A DNA stretch of 64,000 nt. Source: Pseudoduganella sp. (GTDB taxonomy: Bacteria; Pseudomonadota; Gammaproteobacteria; Burkholderiales; Burkholderiaceae_D). The notes beneath the pieces are model-generated. The model was not told the DNA's origin and made no database searches. It worked only from the letters and a program-made list of their open reading frames with translations. The stretch covers positions 25,039-89,038 of the forward strand of contig JBCNPK010000011.1 of NCBI GenBank assembly GCA_039593355.1, read 5' to 3'. Shown piece by piece: positions 54,895-61,357 of this stretch (position 1 is its first letter; the number at the start of each line of letters is the position of its first letter). A program made the translations under genes and the position numbers.

Positions 54895-55761
54895 TCAGTC
54901 AACGCTATCGAGGAAGCTGCGCAGCGCTTCCTGCGCTGCTGGTTCGGACAGCATCGGCGCATGGCCGACATCGGGTACCTCAGCATACAGCATGCCCGGC
55001 GCGGCGGCGCGCATGGCGTTCGCCTGGGCCGGCTCGATCAGGTCCGATAGTGCGCCGCGTATCAGCATGGTCGGGCGGCGCCGCGCCAGGCGGCGGAAAG
55101 CGAAGTGCGCCGCCATCGACGTGGAGCGCAGCTTGTTGGCGCGGATCGGCACGGCGATGTTCGGGTCGTAGCGCATGGCCAGCGTGCCATCGCTTTGCTC
55201 GCGGAAGGCGCGGTGCGCCCAGCGCGCCCATTCCTGCGCCGTGTTGGCGGGAAAGGCGACGCTGTTGATGCTGCTGATGTAGTCGGCGGCCTGCTGCCAG
55301 CTGGTGAACTGCTCGCCCTTGCCGGTATAGCTGCGAATGCGCGACAGTCCGCGTTCGGACAAGGTCGGGCCCACGTCATTCAGGACGGCGGCGGCGACCA
55401 GGCTGGATTTGCGCAGGGCCAGGGTCATGGTGATCAGGCCGCCCATCGAGGTGCCGATGAAGACGGCACGCTCGATGCCCAGGTCGTTCGCCAACTTGAC
55501 CACGTCGTTGGCGTACACCATGGTGGTGTAGTGCTCCGGCTTGCGATCGTATTCGGAATTGCCGCGGCCCCGCACGTCGACGGCGATCACGCGGCGGCCC
55601 TGCGCGGCGAGCCATGGCGCGACGTCCTCAAAGTCGGCGGAGTTGCGCGTCAGGCCGTGGATGCAGATCACGGGCAGGCGCGCCGGTCCGCTGGCGGCGG
55701 GATAGTCGCGTGCATAAAGGCGCAGGCCATCGTCGCTGGTGTAGCTGATCTCGGAATACAT
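54895..55761 (-). CDS. alpha/beta hydrolase, first gene of the ABC operon
   Basis: Start at ATG 55761. Contains PVICIHGLTRNSADF and the nucleophile elbow GTSMGG. Its stop lies 1 nt before the binding-protein ATG (TGATATG). Confidence 0.8.
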   Translation of the reverse strand: MYSEISYTSDDGLRLYARDYPAASGPARLPVICIHGLTRNSADFEDVAPWLAAQGRRVIAVDVRGRGNSEYDRKPEHYTTMVYANDVVKLANDLGIERAVFIGTSMGGLITMTLALRKSSLVAAAVLNDVGPTLSERGLSRIRSYTGKGEQFTSWQQAADYISSINSVAFPANTAQEWARWAHRAFREQSDGTLAMRYDPNIAVPIRANKLRSTSMAAHFAFRRLARRRPTMLIRGALSDLIEPAQANAMRAAAPGMLYAEVPDVGHAPMLSEPAAQEALRSFLDSVD

Positions 55762-55794
55762 GGTCCTCGTAGGCAGCGTTGCAGGAGCCTGCAG

Positions 55795-55890
55795 TGTGCA
55801 AGAAATGCATCGGACACGGAACCGGCGGCGACGCCCACCGTGTGTGCAATTTTGCACAGCTGCACAAGAGAGGCCGAAAATGATGCACAA
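55795..55890. promoter_or_regulatory. divergent control region with a 16-bp palindrome TGTGCAATTTTGCACA and four further TGTGCA/TGCACA half-sites
   Basis: Perfect 7-2-7 inverted repeat at 55843-55858. TGTGCAAGAAATGCAT lies at 55795-55810, and TGCACAA at 55861-55867 and 55884-55890. The region lies between the hydrolase ATG (55761, minus) and the LysR ATG (55899, plus). Confidence 0.6.
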
Positions 55891-55898
55891 TAGGCCGC

Positions 55899-56801
55899 AT
55901 GAAAACACTGCCCGAATGGACCGACCTGCGCTTCTTCCTGGAGCTGGCGCGCTCCGGTACCCTGTCCGGCGCCTCGCGCCGGCTGGAAGTGGAGCACACC
56001 ACCGTATCGCGCCGTATCGACCGCCTGGAGCAGCAGCTGGGCGCCACCCTGTTCGACCGCTCGCGCGAGGGGTATGAGCTGACGGAGATGGGGCACGCGG
56101 TGCTGCCGCACGCGGAGGCGATGGAAAGCGCCGTGCTGGCGGCCCAGGGCCAGTTATCCGGCACCGAGGTCGCCATCCGCGGCGTGGTGCGCCTTGGCGT
56201 GCCGGAAGCGCTGGGCGTGCGTTTCATCACGCCGTTGCTGGCGCAATTCCTGCAGGATTATCCCGAACTTTCGGTCGACCTGCTGGTGCAGCCGCGCTTT
56301 GCCAACCTGGCCAGCCGCGAGGCCGACCTGGGCGTGACGCTGGATGCGCCCAACACGGGCCGCTACATGGTCACGCGGCTGACGTCCTTCCGGCTTTACG
56401 TGTACGGCTCGCCGGACTACCTGGCGCGGCACGCGCCGATCCTGAAGCGCAGCGACCTGGCGGGCCACGATTTCGTCGACTACGTGCAGGACCGCCTGGC
56501 CAGCAACGAGCTGAACTTCCTCGATGAACTGGGGGTCAATCCGCGCCGCCGCCTGTGCTGCACCGGCATGCTGGCGCAGGCCGAGGCGGCGGCGGCGGGC
56601 CTGGGACTGATGATGGCGCCGCCCTACATGGCGACCGATGGCCGCCTGGTGCCGGTGCTGCAGGATGAAGTCTTCGTGGAGCGCGCCTACTGGCTGGTGG
56701 CCCCGGTCGACTTGTACAGGCTGCCCCGTGTGCGCGCCGTCTGGAACCTGCTGCGCCAGTTCGCCGAATCGCGCTCCAGCCTGTTTATTTCGAATAAGTG
56801 A
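55899..56801 (+). CDS. LysR family transcriptional regulator
   Basis: N-terminal HTH LRFFLELARSGTLSGASRRLEVEHTTVSRRIDRLEQQLG plus a LysR substrate-binding domain. It is divergent from the hydrolase-ABC operon. Confidence 0.85.
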   Translation: MKTLPEWTDLRFFLELARSGTLSGASRRLEVEHTTVSRRIDRLEQQLGATLFDRSREGYELTEMGHAVLPHAEAMESAVLAAQGQLSGTEVAIRGVVRLGVPEALGVRFITPLLAQFLQDYPELSVDLLVQPRFANLASREADLGVTLDAPNTGRYMVTRLTSFRLYVYGSPDYLARHAPILKRSDLAGHDFVDYVQDRLASNELNFLDELGVNPRRRLCCTGMLAQAEAAAAGLGLMMAPPYMATDGRLVPVLQDEVFVERAYWLVAPVDLYRLPRVRAVWNLLRQFAESRSSLFISNK

Positions 56802-57295
56802 GGCAGGTCGGCGCCGATATCGATCCGGTGCAGTTCCGGCGCGGCGGTGTCGGGCAGGGCCGCACCGGTCGCCAGCGCGTGCAGGATGGGCGCGGGGTCG
56901 TAGCTCCAGTCCACACAGTAGCGGCAAGGGTCGCCGTCGCGCACCTTCATCAGCGCCAGTTCGAACTGCGACACCGAGACGACCAGCGGATCGTCATGCC
57001 CGGCCAGGAATTCGAGGAAGGCCAGCGGCTGATATTCGCGGAAAGGCGAGATATTCTGCTCCCGTATGAACGCTTCCAGCGCTTCGTCCAGCAGCGCGCC
57101 CTGGCGCAGCAACTCCACCGTCAGCACGCAGGTGCGCTCGAGGACGTAATACCGCCACAGGTGGACGTTGCCGCGCGCTTCCTTCAGGTCGACCGAGGTG
57201 GCCACGCGATGGTAATACGGCGCATCGTCGGCGCCAGGCTGGTAGGTGTCGCGCATCAGGCCAAGCAGGATGCGCTGGTGGTTGCCAAGGTCCAT
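56687..57295 (-). CDS. MNIO partner protein, DUF2063-like (family assignment tentative)
   Basis: ATG 57295 is preceded by a GGAGG embedded in the last codons of the DUF692 gene. It has a DUF2063-like pattern: LWRYYVLERTCVLTVELL...ISPFREYQPLAFLEFLAGHDDPLVVSVSQFELALMKV. Its 3' end overlaps the convergent LysR gene by 115 nt. Confidence 0.6.
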   Translation of the reverse strand: MDLGNHQRILLGLMRDTYQPGADDAPYYHRVATSVDLKEARGNVHLWRYYVLERTCVLTVELLRQGALLDEALEAFIREQNISPFREYQPLAFLEFLAGHDDPLVVSVSQFELALMKVRDGDPCRYCVDWSYDPAPILHALATGAALPDTAAPELHRIDIGADLPHLFEINRLERDSANWRSRFQTARTRGSLYKSTGATSQ

Positions 57296-57297
57296 TC

Positions 57298-58179
57298 TTA
57301 CCTCCATTCGCGTTGCCGCATCTGCCGCAAGGTGTCGGCGATGGCGGCGTGACCCAGGCCGGGAACGGCTTCGGGCATGAATTCGTACACGATCGCTTCC
57401 GCCTCGGTGGCGATGTCGCGCAGCACCTGCTGCGCCAGGTCCATGGTGCAGGGGCGCGGCAAGCGCGAATGCACGTCCAGCATCAGGCCATTGTGCTGCA
57501 CCCCGCAGGCCACGTGCAGCTCGCGCACGTGGCTGCCGTCCAGCTCCGCCAGGAAAGCCTGGATGTCGAGCGCATGGTTGTGCTCATCGCATTCGAGGTT
57601 GTAGACGTCCAGGATCAAGCCGCAGCCGCTGTCGGCCGCGATGGCGTTGAGAAAGCCGGCGTCGCTGTAGTCGGCCGGGCAGTCGGGCACCACGTGCACG
57701 ATGTTCTCCAGCAGGAAGGGCAGGCCGTAGCGCTGCTGCAGGCACCAGGCCCGCTGCGCCACCAGTTCGGCCGCCTGCTCGGTGCGCGGCATGGCCAACA
57801 TGATGCCGAGGTGCTCACCATCGACCCGCGTGTAGCCCAGATGCTCGCTGTGCCAGCGTACGCGCACCTGGTCCATCAGATCGTCCAGCAGGCGCAGGTA
57901 GGTTGGCGACCAGCCGTCGTGCGAACCGATGGACAGGCTGACGCCGTGCACCACGATGGTTTTGTCGCGGTCGATGTTCTTCAATTCGGAAACGATGGCC
58001 GGGTCCAGGAAGATCCGCTCACCATCGGCGATCGACATGGTCTCCGGGGTCACCTCGATGATGTCCGCGTGTGGCAGCATCATTTCCAGCAACACCGGAT
58101 CGCGTCCCTCGTAGCTGACGCCCACACCCGGTTGCGGGCGTGGGTCGGCAGACAACAATTTAGCCGAAGACGGTTTCAT
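57298..58179 (-). CDS. DUF692 family multinuclear non-heme iron-dependent oxidative enzyme (MNIO; MbnB/TglH/BufB superfamily)
   Basis: 293 aa with DUF692 blocks: GVGVSYEG, VVHGVSLSIGS, RWHSEHLGY, PFLLENIV, GLILDVYNLECDEHNH and RELHVACG. Confidence 0.8.
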   Translation of the reverse strand: MKPSSAKLLSADPRPQPGVGVSYEGRDPVLLEMMLPHADIIEVTPETMSIADGERIFLDPAIVSELKNIDRDKTIVVHGVSLSIGSHDGWSPTYLRLLDDLMDQVRVRWHSEHLGYTRVDGEHLGIMLAMPRTEQAAELVAQRAWCLQQRYGLPFLLENIVHVVPDCPADYSDAGFLNAIAADSGCGLILDVYNLECDEHNHALDIQAFLAELDGSHVRELHVACGVQHNGLMLDVHSRLPRPCTMDLAQQVLRDIATEAEAIVYEFMPEAVPGLGHAAIADTLRQMRQREWR

Positions 58180-58423
58180 GCTGGATTACCGCGCCTTCGA
58201 TATGCGGCACCTCGCGCAGCACGCGGCCGATGGCCGGATCGCCCCGCAGGAAACTCAGGTCGAAACCTGTCAGGCCGCAGTTGCAGCCACCCTTGGGCAC
58301 CATCTGGGCCACGGCGATATCGAGGGCCCGGTGCAATTCTTCCAGGGTGACCTTGCCTTCGCTGACGACGATCTTGATGTGGTTATTCTTGGTTTGGGTA
58401 TGGCGCATGCTCAGTTCTTCCAT
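58160..58423 (-). CDS. small Cys-containing protein, candidate MNIO substrate/precursor (87 aa)
   Basis: GGAG lies 6 nt upstream of ATG 58423. MEELSMRHTQTKNNHIKIVVSEGKVTLEELHRALDIAVAQMVPKGGCNCGLTGFDLSFLRGDPAIGRVLREVPHIEGAVIQHETVFG. It has no signal peptide. The MNIO ATG lies inside its last 7 codons. Confidence 0.55.
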   Translation of the reverse strand: MEELSMRHTQTKNNHIKIVVSEGKVTLEELHRALDIAVAQMVPKGGCNCGLTGFDLSFLRGDPAIGRVLREVPHIEGAVIQHETVFG

Positions 58424-58574
58424 GACGTTCTCCAGTTGGTCCGTTGGTGAACAAGGGCGGGTGGGCTGGACCAGGCGGTAAACCGCGCCCCGGGGCTTTG
58501 CATGGGTGTCACTTTATGCCCCCGGAGTGCGTGGCGAATTGGTACTGGCACCCAGATTCCGGGCCGCCCAGCAC

Positions 58575-61217
58575 CTAGTTTTTATGCAGTGAAGCGGGCG
58601 GGCGGCGCAGCAGGTCGATGCGGGTGCTGGCCCCCATCTTGCCGAGCAGGGTGGAAACGTGGTGTTCGACCGTACGTTCGGAACGGCACAGGCGCTGGGC
58701 GATTTCGAGGTTGCTGAGGCCTTCCAGCAGCAATTCCAGCACCTGGGCTTCGCGGCGCGTCAGGCCGCTCGGGTGTTCGCGCGCTGCCGCGTAGGGGCCG
58801 CGGCGCGGTTTGGGCAACTGGGCTTGCGCGCCGCAGTCCCGCGCCCGTTGGCGCGCCATGGCAGCCGCCGGGGCCGCGCCGATCTGCTCCAGCAGGGCGA
58901 CGGCTTTCGGCATGGCCTGCGCCGCCGCGTCGCCCGGAATGTCGAGCAGGGCCAGCGCCGCCTCGAAGGGTAGTCCCAGGGCCAGCCACGCGTCGCAGGC
59001 AGCCTGGCCGCGCCCGGACAATTCGGCGGCGCGCGGAGGTGGTGGCGGATGTTCGCATTCCGGCAGGAGCGCCACCGAGGCACGGCGCTGCCAGGAGCAG
59101 ACTTCGGCCAGGTCCCAGGCATTCACGCCCGAAAAGTCGAATTGGGCGGCCTCGTCCAGCCAACGGCGGCAGCCATCGATGTCCTGCGCCTGCCACGCCG
59201 CTTCGACCATGGCCAGCAACACCGGCAGCAGACGTTGCGATTCGCCGGTGGCGCGCGCCCATTGCAAGGCTTCCTGAAGGCAGCGCGGCGCTTCCGCATC
59301 GCCCTGGCGCGACAGTGTGCGGCCCAGCACCGTCAGCGCCGGCAGGCGCATCACGAGGCTCAGGTCGGGCAGGGCGAGGACCTGGCGCGCCAGCGCGGCC
59401 GCCGCGGCGAATTCGCCCTTGTCGAGGTGGAGCTGCGCCTGCCAGCCGGTCAGGTAATGCACCCAGGCGTCCAGCTCATGTTCGCGGTGATAGGCCAGGC
59501 CTTCGGCCAGCAGGCGCCCGGCCAGTGCAAACTGTTTGAACACGACGGCATATTCGACCCAGTTGCTGTAAATGCGCGCCGCGTGTTCGTGCAGGTGCTG
59601 CGCCAGCGCGCATTGCAGGCCCTCCCCGAGTTCCCGCTGGCCGCTCGCATCGCCCAGGAACAGCTTGGCGCTGCCGATATTGGTGAGGGCATGCACCCGC
59701 GTGTCATGGTCGTCCAGTGTAGTCGCCAGCTCCAGCGCGAGGCGGCCCCATTCGATGGCGGAAGCCGGATGGTTCTGCAGCAGCTGGTGCTGGGAGCGCA
59801 TGCTGTACGCCATGGCCAGCTCCTTGCTGTTGGGGAGCTGCTCGAGCGTGTGGATCGCTTCCAGGCCGTAGTGCTCCGCCTCTCTCGATTCGCCGCGGTA
59901 CCAATAGGTGCGCGCCAGCCAGCGCAGGTTCAGCCCGACCTTATCCGGCCGGTCCACGCTCTGCCAGAGCGCGATGGCTTGCTTGCGCGCCTCGATCAGG
60001 CGCTCGTCGATGCGCAACAGGCCCGCCTCGTAGGCCCAGTCTTCATAAAGCTGGGCGGCTTCCCCGGTCCAGCTGACGGCATCCACGAACTGCAGGGCGC
60101 TGGCCAGGTGGGCCGCCGCCTGGCGGTGGGCGCCAAGCCGCGCGGCCTGGCGCGCCGCGCGCGGCGCCAGTTGCAGCACCATGTGCGCATCCTGCGCCCC
60201 GGTGGCGTGGTGCACCAGGCGCGCCAGTTCCACCTTTGCATGGCTGGGCGCCTGTTCGGTCAGCGCCTTGCACAGGCGCTTGTGCAGGGCGCGCGAAGCG
60301 GCAGGGCGCAGCCCGTTCAGCACTGCCTGGCGCGCCAGCTCGTGACGGAACGACAGGTTGCCGGGGCTGGCCCGCTGCAGCAGGCCGCTATCGACGCTGC
60401 CGTCGATGGCGTCATGACCATGGTCGCCCAGCAGGGCTTCCAGCAGCCATTCTTCCAGCGCGACGGGACTGACGCTGACCAGTTCCAGCACAGTGCGCAC
60501 CGGCGCCGCCAGGCGCGACATGCGCGCCCACACCGCGTCGCGCACCGAAGCCGGCAAGTGGCCGGGCGTACTGTCGCAATCCGCCAACAGTTCGGACAGG
60601 AAGAATGGATTGCCGCCGGTGACGCGGTATAGCTCCACGGGATCGCAGGGCGCGTTGCGCGCAAGCGTGGCGACGGCTTGCGGCGACAGCGGCGGCAGGG
60701 CGATGCGCTGGGTGCTGGCGGCAGGCAAGTCGCCGGCCCAGCGCCAGAAGGCATGGTCGGGCGGCAGTTCATCATTGCGCACGCTGGCCAGCAGCAGGAT
60801 GCGCTGGCTTGAAATCCGCCGCGCCAGGTATTTGAGCAGGTCAAGCGTGGCCTGGTCGGCCCAGTGCAAGTCTTCGCACAGCACCAGGACGGGACGCTGC
60901 TGCGACGCCAGGCGGCCCAGCAGCAAGGGCATCAGCTGGTCGGCGCTGGCGGCATTGTCGATGGCGCAGACGATGTCCTGGCCGAGTTCGTGGGCGAAGT
61001 CGCGCAGGGGGCCGAGGACGCGCGGTGTGGACAGGTCTTCACAGGCGCCTTGCAGGACCAGGAAGCGGTCGCGCAGCGGCGCAGCAAAGGCTTGCAGCAA
61101 GGAAGATTTGCCAATGCCGGCTTCGCCCAGCACAAGCGCCATGCCGCCCACGCCGGAGCCGGCACGGCTGGCAAGCCGCTGAAGTATGTCCAACTCCCTT
61201 TCGCGCTCGAGCAGCAT
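58575..61217 (-). CDS. LAL-type LuxR family regulator (AAA ATPase - TPR-like - LuxR HTH)
   Basis: 880 aa. N-terminal P-loop GEAGIGKSSLL, a long helical repeat region, and a C-terminal LuxR HTH LTRREAQVLELLLEGLSNLEIAQRLCRSERTVEHHVSTLLGKMG. Confidence 0.85.
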   Translation of the reverse strand: MLLERERELDILQRLASRAGSGVGGMALVLGEAGIGKSSLLQAFAAPLRDRFLVLQGACEDLSTPRVLGPLRDFAHELGQDIVCAIDNAASADQLMPLLLGRLASQQRPVLVLCEDLHWADQATLDLLKYLARRISSQRILLLASVRNDELPPDHAFWRWAGDLPAASTQRIALPPLSPQAVATLARNAPCDPVELYRVTGGNPFFLSELLADCDSTPGHLPASVRDAVWARMSRLAAPVRTVLELVSVSPVALEEWLLEALLGDHGHDAIDGSVDSGLLQRASPGNLSFRHELARQAVLNGLRPAASRALHKRLCKALTEQAPSHAKVELARLVHHATGAQDAHMVLQLAPRAARQAARLGAHRQAAAHLASALQFVDAVSWTGEAAQLYEDWAYEAGLLRIDERLIEARKQAIALWQSVDRPDKVGLNLRWLARTYWYRGESREAEHYGLEAIHTLEQLPNSKELAMAYSMRSQHQLLQNHPASAIEWGRLALELATTLDDHDTRVHALTNIGSAKLFLGDASGQRELGEGLQCALAQHLHEHAARIYSNWVEYAVVFKQFALAGRLLAEGLAYHREHELDAWVHYLTGWQAQLHLDKGEFAAAAALARQVLALPDLSLVMRLPALTVLGRTLSRQGDAEAPRCLQEALQWARATGESQRLLPVLLAMVEAAWQAQDIDGCRRWLDEAAQFDFSGVNAWDLAEVCSWQRRASVALLPECEHPPPPPRAAELSGRGQAACDAWLALGLPFEAALALLDIPGDAAAQAMPKAVALLEQIGAAPAAAMARQRARDCGAQAQLPKPRRGPYAAAREHPSGLTRREAQVLELLLEGLSNLEIAQRLCRSERTVEHHVSTLLGKMGASTRIDLLRRPPASLHKN

Positions 61218-61291: not shown

Positions 61292-61357
61292 CTTGAAAAA
61301 GGGGACGTAACACATTTTTCAACCCATGGAAAAATGTGTTACGTCCCCTTTTTCAAG
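61292..61357. repeat. 66-bp palindrome with the AAAAAGGGGACGTA core; terminator-like element between the receptor and the LuxR gene
   Basis: CTTGAAAAAGGGGACGTAACACATTTTTC-AACCCATG-GAAAAATGTGTTACGTCCCCTTTTTCAAG. It has the same core as 42359-42423 but a different centre. Confidence 0.8.

What the first reader, a model, noticed from the sequence alone, without database searches (positions are those of the whole stretch)
56687..58423. Compact DUF692/MNIO operon with a DUF2063-like partner and an upstream small Cys protein: candidate new RiPP-type system
Seen: three minus-strand genes are translationally packed. They are an 87-aa ORF (58423-58160); a 293-aa DUF692 enzyme whose ATG (58179) lies 20 nt inside the small ORF; and a 202-aa protein whose ATG (57295) follows the enzyme's TAA after 2 nt, with a GGAGG inside the enzyme's last codons. 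The enzyme carries the DUF692 blocks (VVHGVSLSIGS, WHSEHLGY, FLLENI, LILDVYNL, ELHVACG). The third protein has the PFREYQPLAFLEFLAGH...SQFELAL logic of DUF2063-type partners. Established: DUF692 proteins are MNIOs (MbnB, TglH, ChrH, ApyH, BufB) that modify ribosomally made peptides, usually with such a partner. Inference: this is a peptide-modification operon. Its putative substrate matches none of the substrate classes I know, namely the short methanobactin MbnA, the signal-peptide DUF2282 bufferin precursors, TglA and ChrA. The chemistry and product may therefore be undescribed.
Basis: partly seen in the sequence, partly recalled or inferred. Interest (0 to 1): 0.85.

Follow-up and report, generated by a model that had tools for sequence, protein, structure and literature searches.

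The report
Uncharacterised three-gene iron-enzyme peptide-modification cassette
This is a real, tightly packed three-gene operon in which an iron enzyme and its helper protein most likely modify two invariant cysteines of a very conserved 87-residue protein; a 2025 computer survey already named the family ("adjamnio-1"), but I found no report of what chemistry it performs or what the product does.

Summary
Three minus-strand genes are packed as described: an 87-aa ORF, a 293-aa MNIO/DUF692 enzyme (PF05114, E 5.6e-44) and a 202-aa partner.

The small ORF is a real gene. It has 174 homologue clusters in Burkholderiales, Acidobacteriota and Myxococcota, an invariant GGCNCGLTGFD..F..G.P block, and variation almost only at third codon positions. 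It lies directly upstream of the MNIO in all 21 loci examined.

The enzyme is below every curated equivalog cut-off (BufB 131/310, HvfB 114/360, ApyH, ChrH, MbnB). The partner matches no DUF2063 model, but its predicted fold is closest to TglI, NGO1945 and MbnC.

The system is not uncatalogued. Antoine et al. 2025 named this precursor family "adjamnio-1", with MNIO network cluster 1 and a "PME-type 2" partner. Their representative, WP_073215760, is a 71%-identical homologue. I found no experimental work.

New here: only the bare trio is conserved, with no protease or exporter. The small protein is as conserved as its enzyme or more. Distant relatives carry G-C-x-x-C-G-[LM]-x-G-[FILV]-D, some behind Tat-like signals or as tandem whole domains.

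Best reading: the MNIO and partner oxidise Cys47/Cys49 of a small protein that is kept whole. The product is most probably a thiooxazole-type metal site, but the chemistry is open.

The parts
58160..58423 (-). Gene for the 87-aa small protein (adjamnio-1 family), the putative MNIO substrate. It has no signal peptide.
   Evidence: ORF and SD. 174 homologue clusters. No Pfam or NCBIfam model. The published adjamnio-1 representative WP_073215760.1 (P0241) is in the 90%-identity cluster of P0011, a 71%-identical hit at E 2.2e-30. The N-terminus is hydrophilic; the highest 11-residue Kyte-Doolittle mean is 1.4.
58235..58291 (-). Codons 45-63, GGCNCGLTGFDLSFLRGDP: the near-invariant Cys loop. Cys47 is 58285-58283 and Cys49 is 58279-58277. 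This is the proposed modification site.
   Evidence: G45-D55, F58, G61 and P63 are invariant in 54 sequences. Variable sites by codon position are 3/1/18. AF2 pLDDT is <50 at residues 45-47, 49-51 and 53-61, so the conservation is not explained by a confident fold.
57298..58179 (-). 293-aa MNIO (DUF692) enzyme of the clade associated with adjamnio-1.
   Evidence: PF05114 E 5.6e-44. Below all equivalog cut-offs: BufB 131/310, HvfB 114/360, ApyH 58/400, ChrH 44.5/600, MbnB 35/325. Nearest solved sequences are 3BWW, TglH and MbnB. H78, H113, E158, D191, N194, H222, D235, H237 and E266 are invariant in the clade. 69% identical to the Massilia sp. CF038 enzyme.
56780..57295 (-). Conserved core (residues 1-172) of the partner protein. 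It is TglI-like ('PME-type 2'): a helical N-domain followed by a short beta-alpha-beta-beta C-domain.
   Evidence: 167 homologue clusters, none with a Pfam domain. AF2 mean pLDDT 86.9. The top three Foldseek PDB hits are TglI 8hci_A (E 1.2e-2, prob 1.00, TMq 0.52), NGO1945 3dee (E 0.13) and MbnC 7tcr_C (E 1.4).
56687..56779 (-). Lineage-specific C-terminal tail of the partner ORF. It is disordered and overlaps the convergent LysR gene.
   Evidence: Present only in the close Pseudoduganella/Duganella relatives (202-aa forms); most other homologues are about 170-205 aa with unrelated or no tails. pLDDT <50 for residues 177-202. LysR ends at 56801.
58424..58574 (-). 151-nt intergenic region upstream of the small gene, the probable promoter/operator. 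It holds a conserved 19-nt box (58552-58534) and a -10-like TAAAGT (58516-58511).
   Evidence: Alignment of 7 orthologous regions. Coordinates. The box is unique in the window. No sigma-70 consensus was found by the scan, so the promoter role is an inference.
58575..61217 (-). 880-aa AAA_16 / TPR / LuxR-HTH (STAND, MalT/LAL-type) regulator directly upstream. It is a candidate activator of the cassette in this clade only.
   Evidence: Pfam AAA_16 3e-20 and GerE 2.1e-14. The adjacency is conserved in L001-L014 but not in L015-L021. STAND/TPR regulators also flank the distant L022 cassette.

Best explanation
This is a self-contained three-gene MNIO maturation cassette of the 'adjamnio-1' type.

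Shown:
- The three genes are translationally packed and always occur together.
- The enzyme is a full-length MNIO whose His/Asp/Glu/Asn motif residues are invariant in its clade.
- The partner has a TglI/NGO1945-like fold.
- The small protein has two invariant cysteines in a loop predicted to be flexible.

Inferred:
- The MNIO and partner form a heterodimer, as TglHI and MbnBC do.
- The partner's short beta-alpha-beta-beta C-domain binds the N-terminal strand and helix of the small protein (HIKIVV...LEELHRALD).
- This feeds the G-G-C47-N-C49-G loop to the iron site.
- O2-dependent four-electron oxidation then converts Cys49, and probably Cys47, into a heterocycle. A 5-thiooxazole is most probable, because BufB and HvfB are the nearest characterised enzymes and Cys49 is followed by Gly.
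- The product is not cut out and secreted. The ~9.6-kDa protein is kept whole, in the cytoplasm in this organism, and serves as a thiophilic-metal (copper-type) or redox site.
- In this clade, expression is probably switched on by the adjacent STAND/LuxR regulator.
For: - Gene packing.
- Enzyme: PF05114 and ranking of characterised enzyme models, BufB 131 > HvfB 114 >> ApyH 58 > ChrH 44.5 > MbnB 35 bits. 3BWW is the best solved relative. Motif residues are invariant.
- Partner: fold is closest to TglI, NGO1945 and MbnC, in that order, as the top three PDB hits.
- Linkage: small gene, MNIO and partner occur together in 21 of 21 loci from Pseudoduganella/Duganella, Massilia, Ramlibacter, Cupriavidus, Bryobacteraceae, Polyangia and an unassigned metagenome contig (L021), with unrelated flanks and no protease or transporter.
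- Small protein: identity to the window across lineages L015-L019 is 65-73%, against 58-69% for the enzyme and 47-64% for the partner. The Cys loop is invariant but has low AF2 confidence. Selection acts on the protein.
- Kept whole: distant relatives keep G-C-x-x-C-G-[LM]-x-G-[FILV]-D and are again followed by an MNIO and a homologous partner. Some carry Tat-like signals placed before the entire domain, and one has two tandem copies of the entire domain.
- Literature: 5-thiooxazole-forming MNIOs prefer a small residue after Cys (PMC13097082). Antoine et al. independently class the family as a putative precursor without signal peptide and with a PME-type 2 partner (PMC12452194).
Against: - No modification has been observed. 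The chemistry is inferred from HMM score ranking only, and all scores are far below the equivalog cut-offs.
- 5-thiooxazole enzymes characterised so far work with DUF2063 (PME1) partners and Sec-exported substrates. This system has neither.
- The two-Cys motif of the relatives (e.g. CPACG in P0282 and P0288) resembles the CPxCGxG substrate motif of ChrH/DybH, which make a macrocycle plus imidazolidinedione.
- No metal-homeostasis genes are consistently linked. The neighbouring TonB-dependent receptor is followed by its own hairpin terminator and is linked only within one clade.
- The Foldseek E-values for the partner are weak (1.2e-2 at best).
- The AF2 model of the small protein is poor (pLDDT 57), so 'folded mini-protein' is not shown.
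- The Tat models score just under their cut-offs.
Confidence: 0.6

Rival explanations
1. Same cassette and same substrate, but the chemistry is not thiooxazole. The two cysteines are joined in a ChrH/DybH-like reaction (macrocycle through a thioaminal plus an imidazolidinedione built on the residues after the second Cys), or in a reaction not yet described that is tuned to the C-x-C spacing.
For: Distant relatives have C-x-x-C-G, some exactly CPACG (P0282, P0288). This resembles the CPxCGxG motif modified by the ChrH subfamily, net -4 Da (PMC13056109). Both Cys and the following G-L-x-G-F-D are conserved as a unit. The enzyme is outside every curated equivalog. MNIO chemistry is known to vary widely between subfamilies.
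Against: The ChrH model scores only 44.5 bits against 131 for BufB. ChrH-type enzymes carry a C-terminal helical bundle and lack a separate partner. This enzyme is 293 aa with a TglI-like partner. The spacing after the second Cys differs (CG-L-x-G against CG-x-G), and the motif is internal rather than C-terminal.
Confidence: 0.2
2. This is a classical RiPP. The N-terminal ~44 residues are a leader, the Cys loop is the core, and an unlinked protease and exporter release a small secreted peptide, for example a metallophore taken up by the nearby TonB-dependent receptor.
For: The gene order precursor-MNIO-partner matches methanobactin-type clusters. A Gly-Gly precedes Cys47. A TonB-dependent receptor lies two genes upstream in the Pseudoduganella clade. 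In Massilia sp. CF038 a 2OG-Fe(II) oxygenase and a 140-aa protein follow the trio.
Against: No protease or transporter is linked in any of seven independent contexts. The whole length of the protein is conserved, including residues 64-82 after the loop. The Gly-Gly is not kept in the wider family, where only G-C is. Tat-like signals and a tandem duplication involve the whole domain. The receptor gene ends with its own strong hairpin terminator and is absent next to the trio outside one clade.
Confidence: 0.12
3. The small protein is not a substrate. It is an accessory subunit or metallochaperone that binds a metal or an Fe-S-type centre through its C-x-C/C-x-x-C motif, and the MNIO acts on something else or has lost activity.
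For: C-x-x-C-G motifs are typical metal ligands. There are weak sub-threshold hits of the two-domain relative to the RnfB N-terminal Cys region (E 0.018-0.022). Tat-like signals are typical of proteins that carry cofactors. The small protein is unusually conserved for a RiPP precursor.
Against: Only two Cys are present, too few for a cluster without dimerisation. Every MNIO characterised in the papers read or listed here, and to my knowledge any so far, acts on the product of an adjacent gene, and a Cys-bearing gene directly upstream is the usual substrate position (PMC12452194). The enzyme keeps all its invariant His/Asp/Glu/Asn motif residues. No other conserved candidate substrate gene exists in the cassette.
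Confidence: 0.08

Closest known systems
adjamnio-1 precursor family / MNIO network cluster 1 / PME-type 2 partner (Antoine et al., Microb Genom 2025, PMC12452194); defined in silico only
   Same: The window's small protein is a 71%-identical homologue of the cluster that contains the published representative WP_073215760.1 (Massilia sp. CF038). The enzyme is 69% and the partner 64% identical to the CF038 proteins, in the same gene order. As published, there is no Sec signal peptide and the partner lacks the DUF2063 signature.
   Different: Nothing that would exclude membership. The window copy lacks the two extra downstream genes of CF038 (a 140-aa protein and a 2OG-Fe(II) oxygenase) and has a 30-residue tail on the partner. 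The paper reports no chemistry, product or function.
Bufferins / captophorins (BufABC, HvfABC, FonABC): MNIO plus DUF2063 partner installing 5-thiooxazoles on Sec-exported Cys-rich proteins
   Same: These are the nearest characterised enzymes by profile score (BufB 131 bits, HvfB 114 bits; 3BWW is the best PDB sequence hit). The substrate is a small protein rather than a short peptide. A Cys-Gly dyad is present.
   Different: Scores are far below the equivalog cut-offs of 310 and 360. The partner is not DUF2063. The substrate has no Sec signal peptide, no DUF2282 domain and no EGKCG repeats. No DoxX gene is linked.
TglHI (pearlin / 3-thiaglutamate pathway)
   Same: TglI is the closest solved fold to the partner (8hci_A, prob 1.00, TMq 0.52). 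TglH is the second-best solved sequence match to the enzyme (E 3.7e-11). The substrate has no signal peptide.
   Different: TglH acts on a C-terminal Cys added by a PEARL enzyme (own knowledge of the pathway). Here both Cys are internal and genetically encoded. No PEARL/TglB-type (LanB-like) family was among the Pfam families listed for neighbouring genes.
ChrH / DybH subfamily (chryseobasins, lipidated macrocyclic peptides)
   Same: The substrate motif has two Cys. The wider family here has C-x-x-C-G, in some members exactly CPACG, like the CPxCGxG of ChrA and DybA.
   Different: The ChrH model scores 44.5 bits against a cut-off of 600. ChrH-type enzymes have an extra C-terminal helical bundle and no separate partner. 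Here the spacing is C-x-C, the motif is internal, and it continues as G-L-x-G-F-D.
Methanobactin MbnABC
   Same: The gene order is precursor, MNIO, partner. MbnC is the third Foldseek hit for the partner. A TonB-dependent receptor is nearby in this clade.
   Different: The MbnB model scores 35 bits against a cut-off of 325. The MbnC match is not significant (E 1.4). The precursor is 87 aa and conserved throughout, not a ~30-aa leader-core peptide (MbnA size from own knowledge). Among the flanking genes annotated none is an exporter or aminotransferase.

Membership tests
MNIO superfamily (Pfam PF05114, MbnB_TglH_ChrH) | Significant match to the family profile above the gathering score | tested here: met
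   150.8 bits against a cut-off of 25, E 5.6e-44, profile positions 14-234 of 263.
MNIO superfamily (Pfam PF05114, MbnB_TglH_ChrH) | Conserved His/Asp/Glu/Asn iron-ligand positions | tested here: met
   H78, H113, E158, D191, N194, H222, D235, H237 and E266 are invariant in 15 clade members. H113, E158, D191, N194, D235 and H237 align to the SDH, EN, DvsN and DtH motifs of MbnB; H78 and E266 lie outside that aligned stretch and H222 does not align to a His. That these are the metal ligands comes from my recollection of the published MbnB structures.
adjamnio-1 / MNIO cluster 1 system (Antoine et al. 2025) | Small protein homologous to the family representative WP_073215760 | tested here: met
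   The accession was confirmed for the L015 protein. It is in the 90% cluster of P0011, which hits the window protein at E 2.2e-30 and 71% identity. The GGCNCGLTGFD motif is shared.
adjamnio-1 / MNIO cluster 1 system (Antoine et al. 2025) | Gene directly upstream of an MNIO gene, followed by a partner without the DUF2063 signature (PME-type 2); no Sec signal peptide | tested here: met
   Gene order. The partner has no Pfam hit but a TglI/NGO1945-like fold. The N-terminus is hydrophilic.
adjamnio-1 / MNIO cluster 1 system (Antoine et al. 2025) | Enzyme falls in cluster 1 of the published sequence similarity network | not testable with these tools
   The network is not available here. As a proxy, the enzyme is 69% identical to the MNIO encoded next to the published representative.
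Bufferin / captophorin systems (BufB, HvfB equivalogs plus PME1) | Enzyme reaches the NCBIfam equivalog cut-off | tested here: not met
   BufB 131 against 310; HvfB 114.4 against 360.
Bufferin / captophorin systems (BufB, HvfB equivalogs plus PME1) | DUF2063-domain partner (PME1) | tested here: not met
   No Pfam or NCBIfam hit at E<=1. There is only weak structural similarity to 3dee (E 0.13).
Bufferin / captophorin systems (BufB, HvfB equivalogs plus PME1) | Sec signal peptide and a DUF2282, EGKCG or Cys-Lys type precursor | tested here: not met
   No Pfam or NCBIfam hit for the small protein. There is no hydrophobic N-terminal segment. The motif is GGCNCG.
Bufferin / captophorin systems (BufB, HvfB equivalogs plus PME1) | Cys converted to 5-thiooxazole | not testable with these tools
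   This needs co-expression followed by MS, UV and NMR.
ChrH subfamily | Equivalog score, C-terminal helical bundle on the enzyme, CPxCGxG substrate motif | tested here: not met
   44.5 bits against 600. The enzyme is 293 aa against a 363-position model and ends about 27 residues after the invariant E266. The window motif is GCNCGLTG. Family features are taken from PMC13056109.
Methanobactin (MbnB/MbnC) | MbnB equivalog score and an MbnC partner | tested here: not met
   35.2 bits against 325. The partner has no MbnC profile hit. Foldseek to 7tcr_C gives E 1.4.
TglHI (pearlin) | TglI-like partner fold | tested here: inconclusive
   It is the best PDB match (prob 1.00, TMq 0.52), but E is only 1.2e-2 and identity 13%. 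There is no sequence-level match.
TglHI (pearlin) | Substrate Cys at the C-terminus, added by a PEARL enzyme | tested here: not met
   Cys47 and Cys49 are internal and encoded in the gene. No PEARL/TglB-type (LanB-like) family was among the Pfam families listed for the flanking genes.

The most novel reading that the evidence does not exclude
The 87-residue protein is itself the end product. It would be a non-secreted, uncleaved mini-protein whose C-x-C loop the MNIO converts into a Cys-derived heterocycle or cross-link, giving a built-in metal or redox cofactor. That would make it the first intracellular MNIO-matured protein. Relatives would export the already matured domain through Tat. The chemistry, fixed by the conserved G-C-x(1,2)-C-G-[LM]-x-G-[FILV]-D signature, would differ from both the thiooxazole and the ChrH reactions.
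Probability: 0.25. Interest if true: 0.7.

Novelty: new member of a known kind. Interest (0 to 1): 0.5.

Why it matters
MNIOs are a fast-growing enzyme family in which several newly studied subfamilies have yielded new peptide chemistry. This cassette belongs to a subfamily that has been listed in a survey, and I found no test of it.

It is a minimal three-gene system, so it is easy to reconstitute. Its substrate is invariant across phyla, and its product appears to stay inside the cell or, in relatives, to leave by the Tat pathway.

Characterising it would do two things. It would show whether thiooxazole-type metal sites also operate in the cytoplasm, or reveal a new two-cysteine reaction. 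It would also show how TglI-like partners recognise a substrate the size of a protein.

For genome annotation, the small gene and the partner currently have no Pfam or NCBIfam model.

Tried and rejected
- Pfam and NCBIfam on the small protein and the partner gave no hits at E<=1.
- A PDB sequence search with the partner profile gave only a chance hit at E 8.1.
- AF2 of the small protein gave a low-confidence model (pLDDT 57), so I ran no fold search on it.
- Rfam on 56400-58800 found nothing at E<=1, so there is no known riboswitch or leader RNA.
- The sigma-70 promoter and intrinsic terminator scan of the cassette found nothing. The promoter proposal rests only on the conserved intergenic block.
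- I considered a sigma-54 promoter in that block by eye. The only TGGCAC-like match is on the opposite strand, so I rejected it.
- I considered the Gly-Gly before Cys47 as a double-glycine leader cleavage site. I rejected it because the wider family keeps only G-C and no C39/PCAT transporter is linked.
- I considered the TonB-dependent receptor as a methanobactin-like uptake gene. I rejected it as part of the operon because it has its own hairpin terminator and is linked only in the close clade.
- Weak RnfB-like hits of a two-domain relative (E ~0.02) are treated as chance.
- The supplements of PMC12452194 did not contain the accession numbers or alignments as text. I therefore proved the link to adjamnio-1 through the accession of the L015 protein. 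The possible identity of the C-x-x-C relatives with 'adjamnio-7' could not be tested.
- One contig look-up failed (repeated). One returned no DNA, and one contig was too short to show the neighbours.
- No second copy of any of the three genes exists in the window.

Full report
**1. The observation**

- The 87-aa ORF is 58423-58160, with GGAG 6 nt upstream of its ATG.
- The 293-aa ORF begins at ATG 58179, 20 nt inside the small ORF, and ends with TAA at 57300-57298.
- The third ORF begins at ATG 57295, two bases later, with GGAGG in the last codons of the enzyme. It runs to 56687. The database copy that is 100% identical is 202 aa long (P0121).
- The quoted enzyme motifs are all present.

The window is 64% G+C and carries many spurious long ORFs on all frames, so ORF length alone proves nothing. 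Conservation does.

- The enzyme matches PF05114 at E 5.6e-44.
- The small ORF has 174 homologue clusters and the third ORF 167.
- Across 22 orthologous small genes, the 19-codon core varies at codon positions 1/2/3 in 3, 1 and 18 sites. This is the signature of selection on the protein.

Two refinements.

- The last ~30 residues of the third ORF are a tail found only in the close relatives. The tail is predicted disordered and overlaps the convergent LysR gene (55899-56801 +) by 115 nt.
- The first ~17 residues of the enzyme are not conserved outside the close clade. In other lineages the small gene and the enzyme gene are separated by 4-56 nt rather than overlapping.

**2. What the three proteins are**

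*Enzyme.* It is a full-length MNIO. H78, H113, E158, D191, N194, H222, D235, H237 and E266 are invariant in its clade. Six of them (H113, E158, D191, N194, D235, H237) align with the SDH, EN, DvsN and DtH motifs of MbnB. The assignment of these positions as iron ligands is from my memory of the MbnB structures.

It does not belong to any characterised equivalog:

| Model | Score (bits) | Cut-off (bits) |
|---|---|---|
| BufB | 131 | 310 |
| HvfB | 114 | 360 |
| ApyH | 58 | 400 |
| ChrH | 44.5 | 600 |
| MbnB | 35 | 325 |

The best solved sequence relatives are 3BWW (the Histophilus somni MNIO), then TglH, then MbnB. Its 120 closest database relatives are all at least 61% identical and are named only 'DUF692' or 'UPF0276'.

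*Partner.* It has no Pfam, NCBIfam or PDB sequence match, so it is not a DUF2063 protein by the usual test.

- A confident AlphaFold model (mean pLDDT 86.9) shows a helical N-domain (residues 3-119) and a short beta-alpha-beta-beta C-domain (126-172).
- The three best Foldseek hits in the whole PDB are the three MNIO partner structures named in the survey or known to me: TglI (8hci_A, E 1.2e-2, prob 1.00, TMq 0.52), NGO1945/DUF2063 (3dee, E 0.13) and MbnC (7tcr_C, E 1.4).
- The E-values are weak, but the ranking is telling.

*Small protein.* It has no family model and no signal peptide.

- It is conserved along its whole length. H15, V20, V25, T26, L30, H31, A33, L34, G45-D55 (GGCNCGLTGFD), F58, G61 and P63 are invariant in 54 sequences.
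- AlphaFold predicts a strand (14-20), a helix (27-41), a low-confidence loop holding the Cys motif, a short helix (63-69) and a strand (75-82). The overall mean pLDDT is only 57.

**3. Linkage**

All 21 related loci examined carry the small gene directly upstream of the MNIO, and the third gene follows in every locus that extends far enough.

- Within Pseudoduganella/Duganella (L001-L014) the whole neighbourhood is syntenic: TonB-dependent receptor, STAND/LuxR regulator, trio, convergent LysR.
- Outside that clade only the trio is shared, and the flanks are unrelated. This holds for Massilia sp. CF038, Ramlibacter, Cupriavidus, a Bryobacteraceae MAG, a Polyangia MAG and one unassigned metagenome contig (L021).
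- No protease or transporter is linked in any of them.
- Across lineages L015-L019 the small protein is 65-73% identical to the window's, the enzyme 58-69% and the partner 47-64%. A putative substrate that is at least as conserved as its enzyme is unusual for a RiPP precursor.

**4. The family is already catalogued**

Antoine et al. (Microb Genom 2025, PMC12452194) analysed small clusters of the MNIO similarity network. They named the Cys-containing proteins encoded next to cluster 1 enzymes 'adjamnio-1', with WP_073215760 of Massilia sp. CF038 as representative. They state that adjamnio-1 proteins lack Sec signal peptides and that their MNIOs have 'PME-type 2' partners, meaning structurally DUF2063/TglI-like proteins without the Pfam signature.

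I fetched the CF038 locus through the partner homologue P0152. An exact look-up confirmed that its 87-aa protein is WP_073215760.1. It lies in the 90%-identity cluster of P0011, a 71%-identical hit of the window protein at E 2.2e-30. The window therefore encodes a member of this family.

That paper is purely computational. Searches for 'adjamnio', for MNIO together with the host genera, for all MNIO papers from 2025 on, and for thiooxazole, captophorin and PME terms found no experimental study of the family.

**5. What this analysis adds**

A profile search of 1.84 billion representative proteins shows the family is small: 41 representatives at E<=1e-3 and 14 at E<=1e-10.

The distant members keep the architecture but carry C-x-x-C instead of C-x-C. 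The superfamily signature is G-C-x(1,2)-C-G-[LM]-x-G-[FILV]-D.

These relatives are again followed by an MNIO, and where the contig extends far enough by a further ~160-200-aa protein without a Pfam domain. In L022 the enzyme is 55% and the partner 39% (E 2e-29) identical to the window's.

Several relatives (P0277, P0282, P0287, P0294, P0297) have an N-terminal RRxF[FL]K-type segment, then a hydrophobic stretch and A-x-A, placed before the complete domain. The Tat-signal models score just under their cut-offs for three of them: PF10518 at 16-20.6 bits against 22.7, and TIGR01409 at 15.9-16.2 against 16.7.

P0294 has two tandem copies of the complete domain, each with its own strand-helix part.

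Together with the absence of any protease, this suggests that the whole small protein, and not an excised core peptide, is the functional product. It also suggests that maturation happens in the cytoplasm before any export.

**6. Most likely mechanism**

Shown: gene packing, protein family assignments, linkage and conservation.

Inferred:
- The MNIO and the TglI-like partner form a heterodimer, by analogy with TglHI and MbnBC.
- The partner's small beta-sheet domain binds the N-terminal strand and helix of the small protein.
- The flexible G-G-C47-N-C49-G loop reaches the iron site.
- O2-dependent four-electron oxidation modifies Cys49 and probably Cys47.

I rank 5-thiooxazole formation first for three reasons. 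BufB and HvfB are the nearest characterised enzymes. The MNIO-PME1 systems examined by Gadgil et al. install this group. Their model enzyme FonB prefers a small residue after Cys, and Cys49 is followed by Gly (PMC13097082). The likely role is binding of a thiophilic metal such as copper, or redox chemistry.

This chemical assignment is weak. The scores are far below the cut-offs, and the partner type and the cellular location differ from all known thiooxazole systems.

The main chemical rival is a ChrH/DybH-type reaction. Those enzymes act on CPxCGxG, and some relatives here have exactly CPACG. Against this, the ChrH model scores only 44.5 bits, and ChrH-type enzymes have an extra C-terminal bundle and no partner.

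Two other rivals are less likely, for the reasons given under the rival explanations: a classical secreted RiPP, and a small protein that is a chaperone rather than a substrate.

**7. Regulation (inference)**

The 151-nt region between the regulator's stop codon and the small gene contains a 19-nt block (58552-58534) and a TAAAGT (58516-58511) that are conserved among seven orthologous loci. The block is unique in the window. No sigma-70 consensus or known RNA motif was found there.

The 880-aa AAA_16/TPR/LuxR protein is the obvious candidate activator in this clade. STAND/TPR regulators also flank the distant L022 cassette. The TonB-dependent receptor further upstream is followed by its own strong hairpin (61353-61296), so I do not count it as part of the unit.

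**8. Verdict**

The novelty claim must be lowered. This is a new member of a family that has been named in silico, and I found no functional characterisation of it. Its chemistry, product and function remain open.

The minimal three-gene layout and the invariant two-Cys loop make it an attractive experimental target. Interest is 0.5. The bolder reading, an intracellular MNIO-matured mini-protein with new two-cysteine chemistry, has a probability of about 0.25.

Noticed in passing
window 56687-56801: The partner ORF has no stop codon until 115 nt into the convergent LysR gene (55899-56801 +). The resulting ~30-residue tail occurs in 202-aa forms throughout the close Pseudoduganella/Duganella relatives, is predicted disordered, and is absent or unrelated in other lineages. 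Its conservation may simply reflect the LysR coding sequence on the other strand (98% protein identity in relatives).
   Followed up: partly
window 58534-58552 and 58511-58516 (minus strand): There is a conserved 19-nt block, GGTGCCAGTACCAATTCGC, and a TAAAGT in the intergenic region upstream of the small gene. Both are invariant or nearly so in seven orthologous loci, and the block is unique in the window. This may be the operator of the adjacent STAND/LuxR regulator plus a -10 element.
   Followed up: partly
window 61296-61353: A long perfect hairpin flanked by an A-run and a T-run (aaaaaggggacgtaacacattttt ... aaaaatgtgttacgtccccttttt) lies between the TonB-dependent receptor gene and the regulator gene. 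It looks like a bidirectional intrinsic terminator.
   Followed up: no
L015 8636-9777 (Massilia sp. CF038): In the genome of the published adjamnio-1 representative, the trio is followed on the same strand by a 140-aa protein without any family and a 234-aa 2OG-Fe(II) oxygenase (PF13640, E 1.2e-8). These may be extra tailoring genes. They are absent from the window and the other lineages.
   Followed up: partly
P0277, P0282, P0287, P0294, P0297 (L022, L023, L024): Distant C-x-x-C relatives of the small protein carry Tat-like N-terminal signals that score just below the curated cut-offs. P0294 has two tandem copies of the whole domain. In L022 the cassette is flanked by two STAND/TPR regulators and followed by a 252-aa protein of unknown family.
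   Followed up: partly
L021 7091-7753; window 54895-55908: An alpha/beta-hydrolase gene lies directly upstream of the small gene on the same strand in L021. An S33-type alpha/beta hydrolase lies beyond the LysR gene in the window, divergent from LysR. These may be coincidental, since such genes are common, but a hydrolase could act as a processing enzyme.
   Followed up: no
P0275, P0276 (database relatives): Two database entries look like artefacts. P0275 loses the conserved sequence right after GFDLSF, which suggests a frameshift. P0276 joins an unrelated N-terminal segment to the C-terminal half of the small protein, which suggests a gene-call or assembly fusion.
   Followed up: no
L020 3512-7629 and 9706-10302 (Polyangia MAG): Upstream of the trio lies a same-strand block with a glutathionylspermidine-synthase-like ATP-grasp protein, two unknown proteins and a weak WelO5-like oxygenase. 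A ferritin gene lies convergent downstream. This arrangement is not seen elsewhere.
   Followed up: no
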